Virus record (IMG/VR): IMGVR_UViG_3300045988_138358
Length of the DNA stretch: 64,000 nt
Source of the DNA: a virus
Lineage: Duplodnaviria > Heunggongvirae > Uroviricota > Caudoviricetes
Direction: 5' to 3' (one strand)
How positions within the stretch are numbered: the stretch's first letter is position 1; each line of letters begins with the position of its first letter. Positions 15,821 through 61,950 of the stretch are shown piece by piece. A program made the translations under genes and the position numbers. Under the pieces are notes generated by a model. It saw nothing but the letters and a program-made list of their open reading frames with translations, did no database searches and had not been told where the DNA came from.

Positions 15821-16099
15821 TCAGGATTCGCTTACCGTGAAGTTGTCGCCTACGGTTACTTCTTTCGTAGTTGGTTCAACACTGACGGCGCTTACGCTTT
15901 TAGGTGCCTCCCTAACAGTGACTGTGCACTGTGCTGTTTTATTGCCGTCATTTGTTTTGATTGTCAGCACTGCCTGCCCGGCCTTAAGAGCGGTACATGT
16001 AGTGCCATCAACCTGGACAATTTCAGGGTGATCTGACTCAACAGTGAAAGATTTGTCTGTTGCGTCAGATGGCGTGATAGTTACTTGAATGTTTGCCAT
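15821..16099 (-). CDS. Ig-like (Big_2-like) domain protein
   Basis: ORF track 92 aa with beta-rich T/V/S pattern typical of bacterial Ig-like folds. Confidence 0.5.
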   Translation of the reverse strand: MANIQVTITPSDATDKSFTVESDHPEIVQVDGTTCTALKAGQAVLTIKTNDGNKTAQCTVTVREAPKSVSAVSVEPTTKEVTVGDNFTVSES

Positions 16100-56886: not shown

Positions 56887-57279
56887 CTACCAGCGAGATA
56901 AGCGAACGACGTGTTTTACCTTAGCGATCCACTTACCACGTGAGTTATTAATTACGGCCTGCGCCACCTTTAAGCTGACTTCAAAATCAGCCTTACGACC
57001 ATCAGAATCCACCAGCGTTGCACCGTCTATTTCCGGCAGGCTTAAATAATCCTGTTCTACCTCTAATGGCATTGACGGCTCTCTGAATGGTGTCAATTGC
57101 CGAGCTTTCCAGATAAAGCGAACTCTCAATCCCCTATAAGCCATTACCATGTAGCCTGTTATCGTGCTCTTATGGCCTGCATCAGTACGCGCAGCATTAC
57201 ACGATACAATCTTACAGGTGACGATATTCCACTCCACGTTGGAGACTTCGTGAATGCTTAATTTTGTTGTCTCGTACAT
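56887..57279 (-). CDS. hypothetical protein
   Basis: ORF track 130 aa. Confidence 0.3.
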   Translation of the reverse strand: MYETTKLSIHEVSNVEWNIVTCKIVSCNAARTDAGHKSTITGYMVMAYRGLRVRFIWKARQLTPFREPSMPLEVEQDYLSLPEIDGATLVDSDGRKADFEVSLKVAQAVINNSRGKWIAKVKHVVRLSRW

Positions 57280-57854
57280 CAGAATGCCTCCCAGTCAGTT
57301 GCGATAATATCCACGCCAGTTGCGAACCAGTCTGTCTGCGCCTGTAAATCCCCATTCATCATTACCAGGCGAGGCATAACCATCACATCGCACCCTTCCA
57401 CAATATCGAATGCCTCTTCCGGCAAGAATTCGAAGAGCTTTTCTTTGCTGCCAATGCTGCCACGGAACATCGATAAATAGCTCCCTTTAGGCCATGATGC
57501 CCGGCGGGCATCCAGCCCCTTCATCATCCAGAACATGGCGGCAGAAAAATTGATGTTCTTTTTGGCGATGAAAACATTATTGGCTTCTGTTTGCTTCAGA
57601 AACTTAATTAGCCTTGCCATCGACTCGGATAACGCTACGTATGGCTCATGATTGGCTGCGGACACGCTCACACCATGTAATCCAACACTGACTACCGTCA
57701 TATCGCCGCTTTGAGCGGTTTCAATGTTGACACCTTTGCGAACTAACGAGGCATAAAGTTCCTCTCGCTTTTGTGTCCAGCGTTCCCGCTGACCGATGAA
57801 GTCACTCAATATGAGGTCTGCTTCTGCATACGCGTTATCGTTCGCCGTTAACAT
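57279..57854 (-). CDS. fusion protein with C-terminal DUF2829-like (Tad2-like) domain, more divergent
   Basis: ORF track 191 aa; C-terminal half (AAMFWMMKGLDARRASWPKG .. PRLVMMNGDLQAQTDWFATGVDIIATDWEAF) follows the same pattern. Confidence 0.4.
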   Translation of the reverse strand: MLTANDNAYAEADLILSDFIGQRERWTQKREELYASLVRKGVNIETAQSGDMTVVSVGLHGVSVSAANHEPYVALSESMARLIKFLKQTEANNVFIAKKNINFSAAMFWMMKGLDARRASWPKGSYLSMFRGSIGSKEKLFEFLPEEAFDIVEGCDVMVMPRLVMMNGDLQAQTDWFATGVDIIATDWEAF

Positions 57855-57974
57855 AACGTCTCCTTTTTACACGCGCGACCATCCCTCGGTTAAACCGATA
57901 GAGATGTCGAAACTTCGTATTAATTAAGGGTTACAGCCTGAGCGGCTATATGATGAATTGAAAGGAGTTGTGGC

Positions 57975-57989
57975 GGTGGTGCCTCCACC
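57975..57989. ncRNA. short hairpin GGTGG-TGCCT-CCACC
   Basis: One of three hairpins with identical loop and covarying stems. Confidence 0.3.
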
Positions 57990-58307
57990 TGCCAGGTTAG
58001 CCACTCCTGGCGACGTCACTTATCAGAACGTAGTGAATGAAAATGGCTTCGTCACGAGCGCATAGCCGCAATTACCACAACGGAAACGGCGCTCACGCTA
58101 ATTAAACGCCTTTTCCTGTTGTGCGCCGTACTCTTCCGGCTGTCACACCGAATCGCCAGGGTGGTGAGTCCTCGGTCCGACGATATGAACGGGGCTTGCA
58201 CATTCCGGCTACCTGGTTTGTTGCCTGAGCTAGGGGAAAAGGTAACCCCTTTAACGTCACCAGACCGCTAACGACGCATGTGCCATACGCCGTGTTACAA
58301 CCAAATA

Positions 58308-58383
58308 TGGTGGCCCCTACCGGACTTGAACCGGTGACCGTGCGATTATGAGTCGCCAGCTCTAACCACTGAGCTAAAGGGCC
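58308..58383 (-). tRNA. tRNA with CAU anticodon (Ile2 lysidine-type or Met)
   Basis: Hand-folded cloverleaf, 7-bp acceptor stem, T-loop TTCAAGT, CCA encoded; close to E. coli ileX as I recall it. Confidence 0.75.
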
Positions 58384-58392
58384 AGATTACTG

Positions 58393-58521
58393 TTAATTCC
58401 GCTTACGCTTTTTGCCAGAACCGCGTAAGGCTTTTGCCGCTTGCTCGATCCCATATGCAACCACCAGCAGAAATAAAAATGTCCAACCAGGGTTCTTATC
58501 GGCAAAGGCCCAAAAATCCAT
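58393..58521 (-). CDS. small hydrophobic protein, 42 aa
   Basis: Hand-found; one hydrophobic helix and basic tail; ends 10 nt before the CAU tRNA. Confidence 0.25.
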   Translation of the reverse strand: MDFWAFADKNPGWTFLFLLVVAYGIEQAAKALRGSGKKRKRN

Positions 58522-58572
58522 CACTTGCAGCTACCTTTTAAGACAAAACGCCATTGCTGTTAGATTGCGGTG

Positions 58573-58587
58573 CCTGGTGCCTCCAGG
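58573..58587. ncRNA. short hairpin CCTGG-TGCCT-CCAGG
   Basis: Second of three hairpins with identical loop and covarying stems. Confidence 0.3.
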
Positions 58588-58795
58588 TGACGTTAACCAG
58601 TTAACAATTAACGCCGGGATGTTTGATTTAACCACTAAGGAGGATTGTTTTAACTGTTCCGCGTGCGCTTAGCCGCATTCACCGCAATGGTAAGAGCACT
58701 TGGCTGGCTGGGCGGCGATGACGCCTGTACGCATTTGGTGATCCGGTTCTGCTTCCGGCATTCGCTTAATTAGCCAAATACTCTTAACGTTGCGC

Positions 58796-58882
58796 TGGCG
58801 GAGAGTAATGGAATCGAACCATCATCGCTTGCGCAATGGGACGGTTTTCAAGACCGCTTGAGCACCATGCTCCCTACTCTCC
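58796..58882 (-). tRNA. tRNA-Ser-like (UGA anticodon, long variable arm), divergent
   Basis: Hand-folded: 7-bp acceptor stem, anticodon loop CTTGAAA, long variable arm, T-loop TTCGATT, discriminator G, CCA encoded; D-arm unusual. Confidence 0.55.
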
Positions 58883-59028
58883 GGCCGTTGTGGTGGCCGG
58901 TACTGAATCTCCGGCATACGGTGCAGCCAATTAGGACTACGGACGATCACCGCTCGCGAAAGGGAAGATTTGCGGCCGCATTTCCCTAACATCCAAGAAA
59001 GCTATCGCATCAGTCTGCGAATCCACCA

Positions 59029-59118
59029 CAACGTTGAGAACACTGGTTGTCACGCTGCAACGCAACATTTATTCGTAGATTGGGATATGACCCCGTTACG
59101 TCAGTGTTCTCAACGTTG
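59029..59118. ncRNA. long hairpin: perfect 17-bp inverted repeats around a 56-nt interior
   Basis: Arms at 59029-59045 and 59102-59118 are exact reverse complements. Confidence 0.4.
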
Positions 59119-59265
59119 TAGTACCGGTTACGGTTCCGGCCAGGCCTCTTCCTCAACGGGGTATTCTCCATACGGACTACCGTTTATTGGTCGTTCCTGC
59201 GGTTTATGTTGTGAAGCCAGATGCTTATCTTCTGGTTGCTTCAAAGAGCTGCACTTCATCACAAC

Positions 59266-59339
59266 GGTAAGGGTACTTCGTAGGGATTCGAACCCTCTGC
59301 CAAGCACGGCGATCTCCGACGTCGCAAAATACCCTTACC
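59266..59339 (-). ncRNA. tRNA-like element: 10-bp closing stem around a canonical T-arm, no canonical cloverleaf
   Basis: Closing stem GGTAAGGGTA/TACCCTTACC with internal T-arm-like hairpin; I could not fold it as a standard tRNA. Confidence 0.35.
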
Positions 59340-59347
59340 TGTTGTGT

Positions 59348-59423
59348 TGGTGCCGATTAACGGACTCGAACCGCTGACATCCTGCTTACAAGGCAGGCGC
59401 TCTACCAACTGAGCTAAACCGGC
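59348..59423 (-). tRNA. tRNA-Thr (UGU)
   Basis: Hand-folded cloverleaf; anticodon loop CTTGTAA; T-loop TTCGAGT; CCA encoded. Confidence 0.75.
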
Positions 59424-59425
59424 AT

Positions 59426-59502
59426 TGGCGATGGTGGGTGGATTCGAACCACCGACCGACAGCTTAGAAGGCTGCTGCTCTATCCTACTGAGCTACACCA
59501 TC
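59426..59502 (-). tRNA. tRNA-Arg (UCU)
   Basis: Hand-folded cloverleaf; perfect 7-bp acceptor stem; anticodon loop CTTCTAA; 2 nt from tRNA-Thr. Confidence 0.75.
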
Positions 59503-60005
59503 ACTTGCCGGTTACGTCTCCGGCGAGGGCTTCCACCTCCGTATGCTTTTCGGCGCACCGCGCCCTGGCTGCAATTCGGTAACAGGGGATGCACAACCCT
59601 GGCTTCCAGCGTGATTAGCGCCTTCAGCATGACGGGATATACCCGTAACCAACAAACTTTCCCATATACCATCAAACAATGGCTGTTACGCGGGAGGGAC
59701 GTAACAGGTAAGGGCGCTGACCAGAAAGACCTGACCCTTCTCATTCATCTGGTTAATCACACCAGCGCCCTTGCCTGTTATGCCTCCCCGTTCCCTAATA
59801 CACAGACGGGGACACTCTGCGGTCGATTTTTTGACGGGGGACGACTCATACCCCGTGGCGTCTGGCTTCTTAGGCCGCTACCATCATCAGATCATCGTTT
59901 GCATTTACTTTAATGGTCGGTTTCTAAACCGCCGCAAAGCCGCTAACCATGACGAAAACCCTAAAAAAGCCCACCCGAAGATGGGCAAATACGCTACATC
60001 TCACA

Positions 60006-60084
60006 CAAGAAAGAAGCCGACTGCCTGAGCTGGATTCACTTTCAAATGCCCGCAGAAAGGGAACACAAGTCGGCTTCTTTCTTG
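60006..60084. ncRNA. long hairpin: perfect 17-bp inverted repeats around a 45-nt interior
   Basis: Arms at 60006-60022 and 60068-60084. Confidence 0.4.
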
Positions 60085-60212
60085 ATGCGGCACTCTCTCC
60101 GCCCGTCACCGCTCTGTCTCGGTTGTCGCGTTTGCCACGCCAGCCATAACGAGGTTTAAAGTCTTTGCACGTTTCCATCACTCGACTGCCGTCTGTGGCT
60201 GTTCGTTGCAGC

Positions 60213-60227
60213 GGGGGTGCCTCCCCC
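60213..60227. ncRNA. short hairpin GGGGG-TGCCT-CCCCC
   Basis: Third of three hairpins with identical loop and covarying stems. Confidence 0.3.
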
Positions 60228-60300
60228 TGGGGATATCCCCGGCCTTACCCCATTCTTTCAAGACACAATGCAAGGCCGCATCCGCATAGGTGCATTACCG

Positions 60301-60367
60301 CAACATTAAGGAGACTTAGGGCAAAAGGTAATCGCCACAAAAAAATCCCTATGCCTCCTTAATGTTG
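60301..60367. ncRNA. long hairpin: 13-bp perfect inverted repeats, 41-nt interior with nested TAGGG/CCCTA pairing
   Basis: Seen directly. Confidence 0.35.
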
Positions 60368-60375
60368 AGGATGTG

Positions 60376-60434
60376 CATTGATGATGATTCGATGCGGCGA
60401 GTCCCGTTACTCTCTGCCGGACCATCATCAATGA
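60376..60434. ncRNA. hairpin: 11-bp perfect inverted repeats (CATTGATGATG / CATCATCAATG), 37-nt interior
   Basis: Seen directly. Confidence 0.35.
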
Positions 60435-60576
60435 ACATCTTAAAAAGACCTTCCGTGGCTCAACATGTCTTGTCGTTTACTCCGTAAAGTGCTCTCTCTG
60501 AAACCACTTTACGCACTAAACCTGCTGAACTTTGGCTTGCTCGGTGCCAAAGCGAATCCCTGTATGCATGTAATTT

Positions 60577-60584
60577 TCTAACAC
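60577..60584. promoter_or_regulatory. operator-like half-site TCTAACAC in the tRNA island
   Basis: Recurrent motif. Confidence 0.35.
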
Positions 60585-60709
60585 TTTAATTTGTTATTTG
60601 CTGGTGGGCGAACAACAACCAATAAGTGACTATCAAGCCCAGCAAGCGAAATGTGGCAACGCTCCACCAGCAAGGAAAATTCTAAGTTAAGTTACTCTCA
60701 CAATCAATA

Positions 60710-60740
60710 TGTTCGTTTGGTGAAATTAGATTTCTAACAC
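60710..60740. promoter_or_regulatory. operator-like degenerate palindrome (TGTTCGT-N16-TCTAACAC) at the 3' end of the 60742 gene
   Basis: Recurrent motif. Confidence 0.4.
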
Positions 60741-60741
60741 A

Positions 60742-61950
60742 TTATTTCCCATAAAGATCTTCTACGCCCCCATTCTTCTTGTCCCATTCGTTAGCCCACA
60801 CCCGGCAGGCATCAATAATTTCTTGACGACGGTCGCCCTGCATAAAGGGGATGCTTTCATGAAAACTACTTGGGATACAGGCCACGCTGAATACGGTATC
60901 AAACGCAGTCTGTTTGATAGCTTCCAACGTCTCTGGGCGCATTTTCAATTCATCGATCGGCGCATCCTTAGAGTCCATAATCCGGCGATGCAGGCGCGGG
61001 AAATCAGTCTCCAGGTACGCCATAATTTTATCTGCCAGGCATTCGTCTATATCGGTATTCCAGTCCGTTTCGAAGCCGGGCAGGCGATAGTAAAGCGGCG
61101 TTCCCCATACTGATGGGATCACATCCATCGTCAGCAGGCGGTTGGTTCTAATTTGTTGATGGTAATTAGCCGTCAACAGAGCTTCACCACGCTGACCAGT
61201 CTCCGCAACCAGACCATGCGGGTACTCATGGATATAGGCAATAGCATCCACCCCGTCATACATGAGCGGGAATGTCTCTGGCCTTTGTCCCATACCACAA
61301 GCGCGGTTCAGATCATGACCAAGCTGTGAGCACTCTCGTTTCAGCGTTTCAATAATGTTCTGCGCTGCTGCTAACTTTTTACGCAGTGTGACGCCTTCGC
61401 CTTGATACTTAATGCATTGCTGATTCAGCTCTGTTAAACGCTCTTTTAGTTCCCGACGCTCTCTTTTCAGCGCACGGTTATCCTTCTCCGCAACATCCAG
61501 TCGTTTTGACAGACTGGCTGGATAGTCTTTTTTGTAACGACTCAAATCGGCTTCTGCGGATTTGCGCAGTGTGTTTGCCTGTTCAAGACGCGCTTCCAGA
61601 TTGCCGATCTCACTACGCATATTCGCGGCAAATTGATTAACAGCATTGCCAAGACTTTCAACTGTCGCTGATACGCCTGTGACTTGTGAAAAACGGATCA
61701 AGCCATCATTAACGGCTTGTTGATATTCCTCAAACTGATCCACCAGCTTGTTGTAATCAACCGTCCCTTCCTCAAGTAGCTGGTTGATCTCCGCGACCAG
61801 GTTATCAGTAGTGGCAATGACGCTCTCATGTAGCCGTCTAGACAGGTCATCCCCCGGATTCCGCTTTTGAATAAGGGCGATCTGTGTCCGCAGCGTTTCA
61901 ATCGCGGCTGAGATGATTTCCAGATTAGAAGTATCAGTTTGTTGACTCAT
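60742..61950 (-). CDS. hypothetical protein, N-terminal coiled coil plus C-terminal globular domain
   Basis: ORF track 60742-61962; the second ATG at 61950 has a better RBS. Confidence 0.4.
   Translation of the reverse strand: MSQQTDTSNLEIISAAIETLRTQIALIQKRNPGDDLSRRLHESVIATTDNLVAEINQLLEEGTVDYNKLVDQFEEYQQAVNDGLIRFSQVTGVSATVESLGNAVNQFAANMRSEIGNLEARLEQANTLRKSAEADLSRYKKDYPASLSKRLDVAEKDNRALKRERRELKERLTELNQQCIKYQGEGVTLRKKLAAAQNIIETLKRECSQLGHDLNRACGMGQRPETFPLMYDGVDAIAYIHEYPHGLVAETGQRGEALLTANYHQQIRTNRLLTMDVIPSVWGTPLYYRLPGFETDWNTDIDECLADKIMAYLETDFPRLHRRIMDSKDAPIDELKMRPETLEAIKQTAFDTVFSVACIPSSFHESIPFMQGDRRQEIIDACRVWANEWDKKNGGVEDLYGK

What the first reader, a model, noticed from the sequence alone, without database searches (positions are those of the whole stretch)
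57975..60227. Three short hairpins sharing the loop TGCCT with different but complementary stems
GGTGG-TGCCT-CCACC (57975), CCTGG-TGCCT-CCAGG (58573) and GGGGG-TGCCT-CCCCC (60213) keep the loop while both stem strands change together. That internal covariation is what one expects when structure rather than sequence is selected, for example for a recurring RNA processing or protein-recognition hairpin.
Basis: seen in the sequence. Interest (0 to 1): 0.5.

Follow-up and report, generated by a model that had tools for sequence, protein, structure and literature searches.

The report
Three copies of STnc100-like phage RNA
The three small hairpins are real, but each is only the best-conserved tip of a larger folded RNA domain of about 105-130 bases. 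That domain belongs to a known family of phage small RNAs (STnc100/PasD) whose function is still unknown. Here it occurs three to four times inside the tRNA operon of a P1/D6-like E. coli phage-plasmid.

Summary
The three perfect 5-bp/5-nt hairpins sit at the stated coordinates and are far beyond chance (0 of 300 shuffles).

They are not stand-alone hairpins. On the minus strand (loop AGGCA, core GGAGGCACC), each is the terminal helix P5 of a full multi-helix RNA domain:
- copy A, 57965-58083
- copy B, 58562-58690
- copy C, 60203-60306

Each copy has a closing stem P1, a P2 hairpin, a variable middle, and P5 stacked on P1.

Copy B matches the core of Rfam STnc100 (RF02076), below the curated threshold. 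I built a covariance model from bona fide STnc100 cores of other phages, using no window sequence. It finds all three copies full-length (E 7.5e-20, 2.4e-10 and 1.1e-9) and nothing else in the 64 kb.

Across 79 distinct relatives, 99.5% of pair cells are paired, 12 of 18 pairs show compensatory changes, and P5 is 100% paired. G.U pairs place the structure on the minus-strand RNA.

The window copies have no promoter or terminator of their own. They lie among four tRNA genes in an early operon like the ban operon of P1.

The function of the family is unsettled. Relatives are Hfq- and CsrA-associated small RNAs.

Verdict: a new member of a known kind, of modest interest.

The parts
57965..58083 (-). 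Copy A of the STnc100-like RNA domain. P1 closing stem 58081..58074 / 57974..57967.
   Evidence: Model R1 gives 44.3 bits, E 2.4e-10, full length. The MFE of the isolated element has P1 closing a multiloop with P5 stacked on it. Not detected by Rfam STnc100 or tRNA models at E<=10.
58562..58690 (-). Copy B of the domain. P1 58688..58680 / 58572..58564.
   Evidence: Rfam RF02076 STnc100 gives 39.4 bits (gathering score 47), model positions 31-147 of 206, E 3e-7. R1 gives 78.9 bits, E 7.5e-20 on the minus strand against 8.8 bits on the plus strand. Homologous copies are present in D6, P7 and P1.
60203..60306 (-). Copy C of the domain. P1 60305..60297 / 60212..60204 (contains a G.U pair).
   Evidence: R1 gives 41.9 bits, E 1.1e-9, full length. 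MFE fold. Not detected by Rfam at E<=10.
58887..59032 (-). Probable fourth, divergent copy. P1 of 10 bp, 59032..59023 / 58896..58887. P2 is UCGCA-GACUGA-UGCGA. The P5-like hairpin is CCGG-AGAUUCAGUA-CCGG (58914..58897). It ends 4 nt before tRNA-Ser.
   Evidence: It aligns with L022:4604-4709 and L035:3174-3279 (R1 25.8-27.8 bits there), with compensatory changes in P2 and P5. In the window itself R1 gives only 5.2 bits, E 0.65, so the call is tentative.
58308..58383 (-). tRNA (anticodon CAU; annotated as tRNA-Ile2 in P1), between copies B and A.
   Evidence: ARAGORN and Rfam; P1 annotation.
58796..58882 (-). tRNA-Ser (UGA), between the fourth copy and copy B.
   Evidence: ARAGORN.
59348..59502 (-). 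tRNA-Arg(UCU) 59426-59502 and tRNA-Thr(UGU) 59348-59423.
   Evidence: ARAGORN and Rfam.
59960..59986 (-). Intrinsic-terminator-like hairpin plus a U run, about 215 nt downstream of copy C. It corresponds to the end of P1's annotated 'dicF-like region'.
   Evidence: P1 annotation and homology.
60679..60707 (-). The only sigma-70-like promoter match in the region, upstream of copy C. It is flanked by two 17-mer operator-like repeats (60575-60591 and 60731-60747). Candidate start of the operon.
   Evidence: The function is inferred by analogy with the C1-controlled Pban of P1.
58076..58123 (-). Upstream hairpin 'P0' of copy A (58123..58107 / 58091..58076). Its 3' arm overlaps the first 6 nt of the P1 5' strand. 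Analogous upstream helices exist for copy C (60391..60277), the fourth copy (59122..59025) and copy B (58788..58689).

Best explanation
What it is. The three hairpins are the terminal helix (P5: a 5-bp stem, the pentaloop AGGCA, and an invariant GG/CC next to the loop) of three paralogous copies of one structured RNA domain. The domain is transcribed from the minus strand.

Each copy folds as follows: an 8-9-bp closing stem P1, a short linker (AAU), a P2 hairpin with loop UAUGC or UAAGC, one or two variable hairpins, the dinucleotide CA, and then P5 placed directly against the 3' strand of P1.

The domain is the conserved core of the phage and prophage small-RNA family STnc100/PasD (Rfam RF02076).

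What is shown versus inferred for the window. The copies have no promoter or terminator of their own and lie between tRNA genes and small ORFs. I infer that they are made as part of one long, mostly untranslated early transcript, equivalent to the repressor-controlled ban/tRNA operon of phage P1.

Inferred mechanism (not shown):
1. Processing of the tRNAs and of the long upstream helices releases the domains, or leaves them at fragment ends.
2. Because P1 locks both ends of the domain, the domains persist as stable RNA modules.
3. The invariant GGAGGCACC hairpin is displayed to a trans-acting partner, most plausibly a host RNA-binding protein such as Hfq or CsrA, which bind relatives of this family.

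The confidence of 0.8 refers to the identity, fold and strand. For the inferred mechanism I would give about 0.3.
For: Identity and structure:
- Rfam STnc100 matches copy B over the core, and the Rfam consensus itself contains CCGGG-AGGCA-CCCGG inside a 7-bp closing stem.
- 120 viral contigs carry the element. Many score above the STnc100 gathering threshold, and L043 carries 3 copies.
- Covariance model R1 was built from 22 such cores with no window or D6 sequence. It finds copies B, A and C full-length at E 7.5e-20, 2.4e-10 and 1.1e-9, and nothing else in the 64 kb.
- Each isolated copy adopts the same P1/P2/.../P5 fold as its minimum-free-energy structure.
- Family covariation over 79 distinct sequences: 99.5% of cells paired; 12 of 18 pairs with compensatory changes; 0 of 500 shuffles reach this; slid controls give 36-51% paired.

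Strand:
- About 83 G.U cells would be mismatches on the other strand.
- Copy B scores 78.9 bits on the minus strand and 8.8 bits on the plus strand.
- The P7 variant pairs only as G.U on the minus strand.
- The copies are co-oriented with the four tRNAs and the flanking genes.

Embedded context:
- No terminator within 140 nt and no promoter placed at P1 for the window copies. By contrast, at least 22 of 82 relatives have a terminator (median 29 nt downstream), and 17 of 74 have a promoter-like site placed at P1 against 4 of 74 controls.
- The region is homologous to the P1 operon Pban - dicF-like - tRNA - tciABC - tRNA - ban.

Literature:
- STnc100, PasD, EcOnc13 and EcOnc27 are expressed, Hfq-bound prophage small RNAs (PMC8550237, PMC12711010, PMC5331693, bioRxiv 10.64898/2026.05.13.724894).
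- PasD2 is the most abundant partner in CsrA chimeras (bioRxiv 10.64898/2026.08.12.744399).
- PasD2 is itself a weak R1 hit, 22 bits, E 3e-5.
Against: - Copy B is below the Rfam gathering score (39.4 against 47). Copies A and C get no Rfam STnc100 hit even at E<=10. Membership therefore rests on my core-only model.
- The relatives were retrieved with a pattern that fixes GGARGCACC and part of P1. Loop invariance in that set is partly by construction. Sixteen distinct elements fell outside that retrieval pattern; most are near-identical B-type copies from P1-, P7- and D6-like loci. Eleven of the 16 carry GGAGGCACC. P7 keeps the AGGCA loop with a G.U stem pair, and P1 has the loop AAGCA.
- The alignment used for pair counts was fitted to the model.
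- Fold energies of the single copies are only mildly better than shuffles (z -1.4 to -1.9).
- With longer 5' context, an upstream helix outcompetes P1 for copies A, C and the fourth copy by 3-8 kcal/mol. The domain may therefore not form constitutively.
- Nothing here shows transcription, processing, stability or protein binding of the window copies. The PasD2 relative that binds CsrA has lost the 3' strand of P5.
Confidence: 0.8

Rival explanations
1. The 15-nt hairpins are autonomous recurring signals. Examples would be a boxB-like site for a phage antitermination protein, or an RNase recognition hairpin. On this reading they act on their own rather than as part of a larger domain.
For: The geometry matches lambda boxB: a 15-nt hairpin with a 5-bp stem and a pentaloop (boxB sequence in PMC2724277). 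The loop is invariant while the stems vary. Hairpins 1 and 3 flank the tRNA module.
Against: - Every copy is embedded in the same larger architecture, with a covarying P1 and P2.
- No such hairpin occurs outside that architecture anywhere in the window.
- The loop AGGCA is not GNRA-like.
- The boxA-like motif next to copy B turned out to be one strand of a covarying helix.
Confidence: 0.06
2. The domains are degenerate tRNA genes or tRNA-like structures. RNase P or other tRNA enzymes would recognise them and use them as punctuation of the operon.
For: - The topology resembles a class II tRNA cloverleaf: a closing stem, a short linker, several arms, and a last arm with a 5-bp stem ending in GG/CC that abuts the 3' strand of the closing stem.
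- The domains lie inside a tRNA cluster.
- The fourth copy ends 4 nt before tRNA-Ser.
- T-arm-like remnants occur just upstream of several family members.
Against: - ARAGORN and the Rfam tRNA models do not detect copies A, B or C even at E<=10.
- The P5 loop has 5 nt (AGGCA), not the 7-nt T loop.
- P1 has 8-10 bp.
- Of 60 relative loci scanned, 19 carry any tRNA gene, and in several of those the tRNA lies kilobases from the element.
Confidence: 0.06
3. A boxA-type (NusB/NusE) antitermination module. On this reading a boxA next to the structured domain protects the long untranslated operon from Rho.
For: UGCUCUUA lies 3 nt upstream of P1 of copy B, and phage P1 has UGCUCUUU. These compare with rrn boxA UGCUCUUUA and lambda boxA CGCUCUUA (PMC2724277). 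The core UGCUCUU sits at a fixed offset in 8 of 68 distinct relatives exactly, and in 22 of 68 with at most one mismatch, against 0.1 and 1.8 expected. The operon is long and mostly untranslated. boxA is known to protect other non-coding transcripts (PMC7665894).
Against: The motif is predicted to be base-paired (mean unpaired probability 0.13, against 0.39 for the upstream region) with a covarying upstream partner, CAGGUAAGAGCAUU. NusB/NusE bind single-stranded boxA. Copies A, C and the fourth copy have only degenerate versions.
Confidence: 0.04
4. DNA-level palindromes, acting as protein-binding or recombination sites at module junctions, or simply chance.
For: The elements sit close to homology breakpoints between the window, D6, P7 and P1. 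For example, the tciA/tciB deletion junction lies within 3 nt of the 3' end of copy B, and hairpins 1 and 3 lie outside the P1-homologous block.
Against: - G.U pairs and the strong strand asymmetry of the model score.
- The loop is asymmetric and conserved.
- Chance is excluded by the shuffles.
- Conserved RNA elements commonly act as recombination microhomology without that being their function.
Confidence: 0.02

Closest known systems
STnc100 (Rfam RF02076), small RNA of gammaproteobacterial prophages
   Same: - The same core domain: a closing stem, GAAU, P2 with a UAUGC-type loop, variable arms, and CA plus CCNGG-AGGCA-CCNGG stacked on the closing stem.
- Phage-borne, and multi-copy arrays occur elsewhere, for example 3 copies in L043.
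   Different: - The window copies match only the core. Copy B covers model positions 31-147 of 206 and is below the gathering score. Copies A and C are not detected by Rfam at all.
- The window copies lack the promoter and the terminator with U tail seen in many stand-alone members.
- The host element is a P1/D6-like phage-plasmid tRNA operon, not the late region of a lambdoid prophage.
PasD1/PasD2 (EcOnc13), Hfq- and CsrA-associated small RNAs of EPEC prophages
   Same: Structural homology to STnc100 has been reported (bioRxiv 10.64898/2026.05.13.724894). PasD2 hits my model at 22 bits, E 3e-5, with the same P1, GAAU and P2. The neighbouring genes are related: a DUF3927/TciB-type gene sits next to PasD2, and TerB/TciA plus DUF3927 follow copy B in D6 and P1.
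   Different: PasD2 has lost the 3' strand of P5, leaving GGGAGGC unpaired. It carries its own promoter, a single-stranded seed region and a terminator.
Lambda nut site (boxA + boxB)
   Same: The hairpin has the size of boxB (5 bp plus 5 nt). A boxA-like octamer lies beside copy B.
   Different: The hairpin is part of a five-helix domain. Its loop is not GNRA-like. The boxA-like motif is predicted to be paired with a covarying partner. No N-type gene or position was identified.
tRNA and tRNA-like structures
   Same: Cloverleaf-like topology, a 5-bp terminal arm with GG/CC next to the loop, and a location in a tRNA cluster.
   Different: Not recognised by tRNA models. The loop has five bases and the closing stem is longer.

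Membership tests
STnc100 (Rfam RF02076) | Score at or above the family's curated gathering threshold (47 bits) with the Rfam covariance model. | tested here: not met
   Copy B scores 39.4 bits and covers only model positions 31-147 of 206. Copies A and C give no hit even at E<=10 on short stretches.
STnc100 (Rfam RF02076) | Core domain: a closing stem, a P2 hairpin, and a terminal CCNGG-AGGCA-CCNGG hairpin abutting the closing stem. | tested here: met
   Model R1 was built only from cores of contigs, many of which score at or above the Rfam threshold. It finds copies B, A and C full-length at 78.9, 44.3 and 41.9 bits. The MFE folds agree.
STnc100 (Rfam RF02076) | Helices supported by compensatory changes across members. 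| tested here: met
   99.5% of cells paired, 12 of 18 pairs compensatory, 0 of 500 shuffles reach this, and slid controls give 36-51% paired. Caveat: the alignment was fitted to the model.
STnc100 / PasD small-RNA genes | An independent transcription unit: own promoter at the 5' edge and an intrinsic terminator with U tail (Hfq site) shortly downstream. | tested here: not met
   None of the three window copies has a terminator-like site within 140 nt or a promoter-like site placed at P1.
STnc100 / PasD small-RNA genes | Expression as a stable RNA that binds Hfq (and CsrA in the case of PasD2). | not testable with these tools
   Known only for relatives (PMC8550237, PMC5331693, bioRxiv 10.64898/2026.08.12.744399).
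tRNA / tRNA-like | Recognition by tRNA covariance models or ARAGORN, and a 7-nt T loop. | tested here: not met
   The P5 loop is the 5-nt AGGCA.
Lambda-type nut site | A single-stranded boxA followed by a boxB hairpin with a GNRA-like pentaloop. | tested here: not met
   The boxA-like motif is predicted to be paired with a covarying partner. The loop is AGGCA.
Intrinsic terminator | A G+C-rich hairpin followed by a U run. | tested here: not met
   No T run follows any of the three hairpins on either strand.

The most novel reading that the evidence does not exclude
The STnc100-type core may not be merely the 5' body of a base-pairing small RNA. It may be a portable module whose folding is coupled to RNA processing.

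In embedded copies such as these, an upstream helix resembling a leader-trailer stem (P0, often enclosing a tRNA or a tRNA remnant) competes with P1 for the same GUUGUG bases. Cleavage of P0 would then let the domain snap shut. The closed domain would expose an invariant GGAGGCACC hairpin to a host factor such as CsrA, Hfq or the 30S subunit.

Three to four copies per early operon would then act either as a phage-encoded sink for that factor or as internal stabilisers that set the fate of each operon segment.
Probability: 0.15. Interest if true: 0.6.

Novelty: new member of a known kind. Interest (0 to 1): 0.33.

Why it matters
STnc100 and PasD are among the most abundant prophage RNAs in pathogenic E. 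coli and Salmonella. One copy lies just downstream of the Shiga toxin 2 genes. Their function is still open.

Three points from this analysis could help:
- The conserved core also occurs, unannotated, in three to four copies in the early tRNA operon of P1- and D6-like phage-plasmids. That offers a genetically tractable system (P1) in which to ask what the core does.
- Two subtypes (A and C) are missed by the current Rfam model.
- The terminal hairpin is the most constrained part of the domain.

For genome annotation, this explains about 0.5 kb of the 'empty' 2.9-kb non-coding stretch.

Tried and rejected
1. Chance. Rejected by dinucleotide shuffles.

2. Plus-strand reading. Rejected by the G.U pairs and by the model score on each strand.

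3. Terminators. No U run follows the hairpins.

4. The other three GGTGCCTCC sites (15903, 20400, 26238). They lie inside ORFs and do not match the model. The apparent hairpin at 15903 lies in a 92-aa ORF.

5. The enrichment of GGAGGCA (20 sites against 7 expected) may owe something to Shine-Dalgarno-type sites. I checked one by reading the sequence (57285-57291, just upstream of the start codon at 57279) and did not examine the rest.

6. tRNA-likeness. No tRNA model hit.

7. boxA/Nus antitermination. This looked attractive at first because UGCUCUU sits at a fixed offset. I rejected it because the motif is one strand of a covarying upstream helix.

8. A kissing interaction between the P2 loop and the P5 loop. 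By inspection, only 2-3 potential pairs are possible, and there is no variation with which to test it.

9. A general test of whether native upstream sequence destabilises P1. The effect is modest (mean ddG 2.2 against 0.9 kcal/mol, p 0.006), it depends on where the boundaries are set, and the sequences are not independent.

10. Association with tRNA genes across the family. It holds only for a minority of loci.

11. The P1 C1 operator is absent from the window.

I did not use the protein-structure tools or the metagenome and genome scans. They were not needed for an RNA element.
Full report
**1. Observation**

The three hairpins are in the sequence exactly as described: GGTGG-TGCCT-CCACC at 57975-57989, CCTGG-TGCCT-CCAGG at 58573-58587 and GGGGG-TGCCT-CCCCC at 60213-60227. 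Scanning the whole window for perfect 5-bp/5-nt hairpins gives 95. TGCCT is the only loop that occurs three times, and no hairpin has the loop AGGCA on the plus strand.

In 300 dinucleotide-preserving shuffles, three same-loop hairpins within 2.3 kb never occurred. The shared sequence is really a 9-mer, GGTGCCTCC, so only the outer three pairs differ. That 9-mer occurs six times in the window against a mean of 0.28 in shuffles. The other three occurrences are inside ORFs and unrelated. Hairpins 1 and 3 lie within a 25-nt direct repeat whose stem differences are compensatory.

**2. Context**

The window is a P1-family phage-plasmid.
- The region 57800-60800 is 95.7% identical to Escherichia phage D6.
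- A 6-kb stretch around it is 99.4% identical to E. coli plasmids of about 90 kb.

The stretch 57855-60741 has no convincing ORF apart from one of 43 aa. It carries four tRNA genes, all on the minus strand. The flanking genes are also on the minus strand: a pmgS-like gene, a Tad2-like ORF and lpa.

The central part (58122-59989) is homologous to the ban operon leader of phage P1. There the annotated order is C1-controlled Pban, a dicF-like region, tRNA-Asn, tRNA-Thr, tciA-B-C, tRNA-Ile and ban. The RNA to consider is therefore the minus strand, on which the hairpins read NNNGG-AGGCA-CCNNN with the core GGAGGCACC.

**3. What the hairpins belong to**

A permissive Rfam search hits STnc100 (RF02076) on the minus strand at 58566-58686. 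The score is 39.4 bits against a gathering score of 47, with E 2e-6, over model positions 31-147 of 206. In that alignment the Rfam consensus itself reads CACC-GGGAGGCACCC-GGCACCAug. That is the same 5-bp/AGGCA hairpin, placed directly against the 3' strand of a 7-bp closing stem.

Aligning and folding the three regions shows that all three hairpins sit in the same architecture:
- a closing stem P1 of 8-9 bp
- the linker AAU
- a P2 hairpin with loop UAUGC or UAAGC
- one or two variable hairpins
- the dinucleotide CA
- P5, the reported hairpin
- the 3' strand of P1

For each element cut at the model boundaries, this is the minimum-free-energy structure.

**4. Independent test of membership**

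A pattern scan of viral contigs returned 120 loci. Many of them score above the Rfam STnc100 threshold, and one contig (L043) has three copies within 2 kb.

I built a covariance model, R1, from 22 such cores, with none from the window or from D6-like copies. Over the whole 64-kb window it finds exactly three significant full-length matches:
- copy B, 58562-58690, 78.9 bits, E 7.5e-20
- copy A, 57965-58083, 44.3 bits, E 2.4e-10
- copy C, 60203-60306, 41.9 bits, E 1.1e-9

With filters off, the plus strand of copy B scores 8.8 bits. Copies A and C are not seen by the Rfam STnc100 model, or by tRNA models, even at E<=10 on short stretches. They are divergent subtypes that share the family core.

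**5. Covariation and strand**

R1 found 101 matches, 79 of them distinct, in the window and 99 loci. Pair counts on that alignment:
- 99.5% of pair cells are standard pairs.
- 12 of 18 pairs have compensatory changes.
- No shuffle out of 500 reaches the observed values.
- Sliding the partners by 1-3 columns drops pairing to 36-51%.

P5 is paired in 100% of cells. Its outer three pairs vary (CG/GC/UA, CG/GC/AU, GC/UA/GU), while the two inner G-C pairs and the loop are essentially fixed. Outer stem triplets seen in the set include CCG, GGU, GGG, CCU, UCU and CAU.

About 83 cells are G.U pairs, which would be A.C mismatches on the other strand. The homologous hairpin of P7 pairs only as G.U on the minus strand, and that of P1 carries a full compensatory change plus the loop variant AAGCA.

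Caveats:
- The retrieval pattern fixed the 9-mer and part of P1.
- The alignment is fitted to the model.
- Sixteen distinct elements did not match the retrieval pattern, most of them near-identical B-type copies from P1-, P7- and D6-like loci. Eleven of the 16 carry GGAGGCACC.

**6. Architecture of the window copies compared with relatives**

Many relatives look like stand-alone small-RNA genes.
- At least 22 of 82 distinct elements have a terminator-like hairpin and U run, at a median of 29 nt downstream.
- 17 of 74 have a promoter-like site positioned to start transcription at P1, against 4 of 74 controls.
- PasD2 of EPEC is of this type: promoter, domain, single-stranded seed and terminator. 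It is a weak R1 hit (22 bits) that has lost the 3' strand of P5.

The three window copies have neither a promoter nor a terminator of their own. They are embedded. Reading along the minus strand, the order is:
1. promoter-like site 60707..60679
2. copy C
3. about 215 nt, ending in a terminator-like site at 59986..59960
4. tRNA-Arg and tRNA-Thr
5. a pseudo-tRNA-like hairpin
6. a probable fourth, divergent copy (59032..58887)
7. tRNA-Ser
8. copy B
9. a 43-aa ORF
10. the tRNA with anticodon CAU
11. copy A
12. the Tad2-like ORF

D6-like contigs keep this order while the cargo between the copies varies. P1 and P7 have only copy B, which lies 30-34 nt upstream of tciA (TerB).

**7. Mechanism**

Shown: the fold, its conservation, the strand, the family relationship and the embedded context.

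Taken from the literature for relatives:
- STnc100, PasD, EcOnc13 and EcOnc27 are expressed and bind Hfq (PMC8550237, PMC12711010, PMC5331693).
- EHEC EDL933 carries 11 STnc100 copies. One was verified by Northern blot, and some carry ribosome footprints (PMC5331693).
- PasD2 is the most abundant RNA in CsrA chimeras (bioRxiv 10.64898/2026.08.12.744399).
- The authors who surveyed the family state that the function is not elucidated (bioRxiv 10.64898/2026.05.13.724894).

Inferred for the window: the domains are produced from one long early transcript. They become stable modules once the tRNAs and upstream helices are processed, because P1 sequesters both ends. The invariant GGAGGCACC hairpin, stacked on P1, is then the surface read by a trans-acting partner. 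I cannot identify that partner. The conservation of CACC beyond GGAGG argues against a simple Shine-Dalgarno mimic.

**8. A lead followed and rejected**

A motif resembling boxA lies 3 nt upstream of P1 of copy B (UGCUCUUA), and P1 phage has UGCUCUUU. These compare with rrn boxA UGCUCUUUA and lambda boxA CGCUCUUA (PMC2724277). The motif sits at a fixed offset in about a third of relatives.

It is nevertheless predicted to be paired: mean unpaired probability 0.13, against 0.39 for the surrounding upstream sequence. Its partner lies 40-130 nt upstream and covaries with it. It is therefore the 3' strand of a further helix (P0), not a single-stranded Nus-factor site.

**9. An unresolved extra**

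P0 extends into the first 5-6 nt of the P1 5' strand. An exact complement of that strand lies 43-193 nt upstream in 26 of 67 distinct contexts, against 4 of 67 in a downstream control. It changes together with the P1 strand: CACAAC with GUUGUGG, CGCAAC with GUUGCGG, and CACAAU with AUUGUGG.

In the window, the P0 form is favoured over the P1 form by 3.3 kcal/mol for copy A, 7.7 for copy C and 5.1 for the fourth copy. Both helices coexist for copy B. A family-wide energy test was only weakly positive and depends on where the boundaries are set. This suggests that folding of embedded copies may be coupled to processing of the upstream helix, but it is not established.

**10. Verdict**

It is wrong about the strand and about the unit of function.
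- The feature is a set of new, divergent and unannotated members of a known phage RNA family of unknown function. No RNA feature is annotated at these positions in the D6, P1 and P7 records.
- Interest is modest.

Noticed in passing
window 58887-59032 (-): Probable fourth, divergent copy of the same domain. It has a 10-bp P1 and a P5-like hairpin with a 10-nt loop (CCGG-AGAUUCAGUA-CCGG), and it ends 4 nt before tRNA-Ser. The same subtype occurs in L022:4604-4709 and L035:3174-3279, with compensatory changes. A truncated P1-only remnant lies at 59206-59267 (-).
   Followed up: partly
window 58076-58123, 58689-58788, 59025-59122, 59260-59346, 60277-60391 (all -); relatives in L-loci: Each domain copy is preceded by a long upstream helix (P0). 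Its 3' strand is a conserved box, (A/G)GUGCUCUUYCCG, that abuts or overlaps the P1 5' strand. P0 and P1 compete for GUUGUG. The competing complement covaries with P1 in relatives (26 of 67 contexts against 4 of 67 in a control).
   Followed up: partly
window 59260-59346 (-): A pseudo-tRNA-like element: a T-arm-like hairpin (GGGUUCGAAUCCC) and an acceptor-like stem, enclosed by a leader-trailer stem CACAACAGGUAAGGGUA / UACCCUUACCGUUGUG. ARAGORN does not call it. Similar T-arm remnants lie upstream of the domain in P1 and in other contigs.
   Followed up: no
window 60575-60591 and 60731-60747; also 35971, 40733, 50971: The 17-mer AAWTAAWGTGTTAGAAA occurs 5 times (0.13 expected). Two copies flank the only promoter-like site upstream of copy C (60707..60679, minus strand). 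The P1 C1 operator consensus is absent from the window. This is probably the operator of a D6-type immunity repressor, which would place the tRNA/RNA-domain operon under repressor control as in P1.
   Followed up: partly
window 57279-57854 (-): The ORF just downstream of copy A has a Tad2-like (Thoeris anti-defence 2) domain: Pfam PF11195, E 1.5e-9, above the curated cut-off.
   Followed up: no
window 58524-58559 compared with D6 locus L001:2208-2834: Relative to phage D6, the window lacks tciA (TerB) and tciB (DUF3927). The deletion junction lies within 3 nt of the 3' end of copy B. Homology breakpoints with P1 and P7 also fall near the RNA elements, which suggests that they serve as recombination microhomology.
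   Followed up: partly
window 59960-60085 (-): A perfect 17-bp hairpin (60084..60006) is followed by an intrinsic-terminator-like site (59986..59960) downstream of copy C. The terminator part is homologous to the end of the 'dicF-like region' annotated in P1. No Rfam DicF hit was found.
   Followed up: no
window, whole: GGAGGCA occurs 20 times against 7.0 expected (0 of 100 shuffles reach 20). One site I checked (57285-57291) is a Shine-Dalgarno site. Two further copies (59781-59787 and 60352-60358, minus strand, GGAGGCAUA) lie in arms of long hairpins within the non-coding region.
   Followed up: partly
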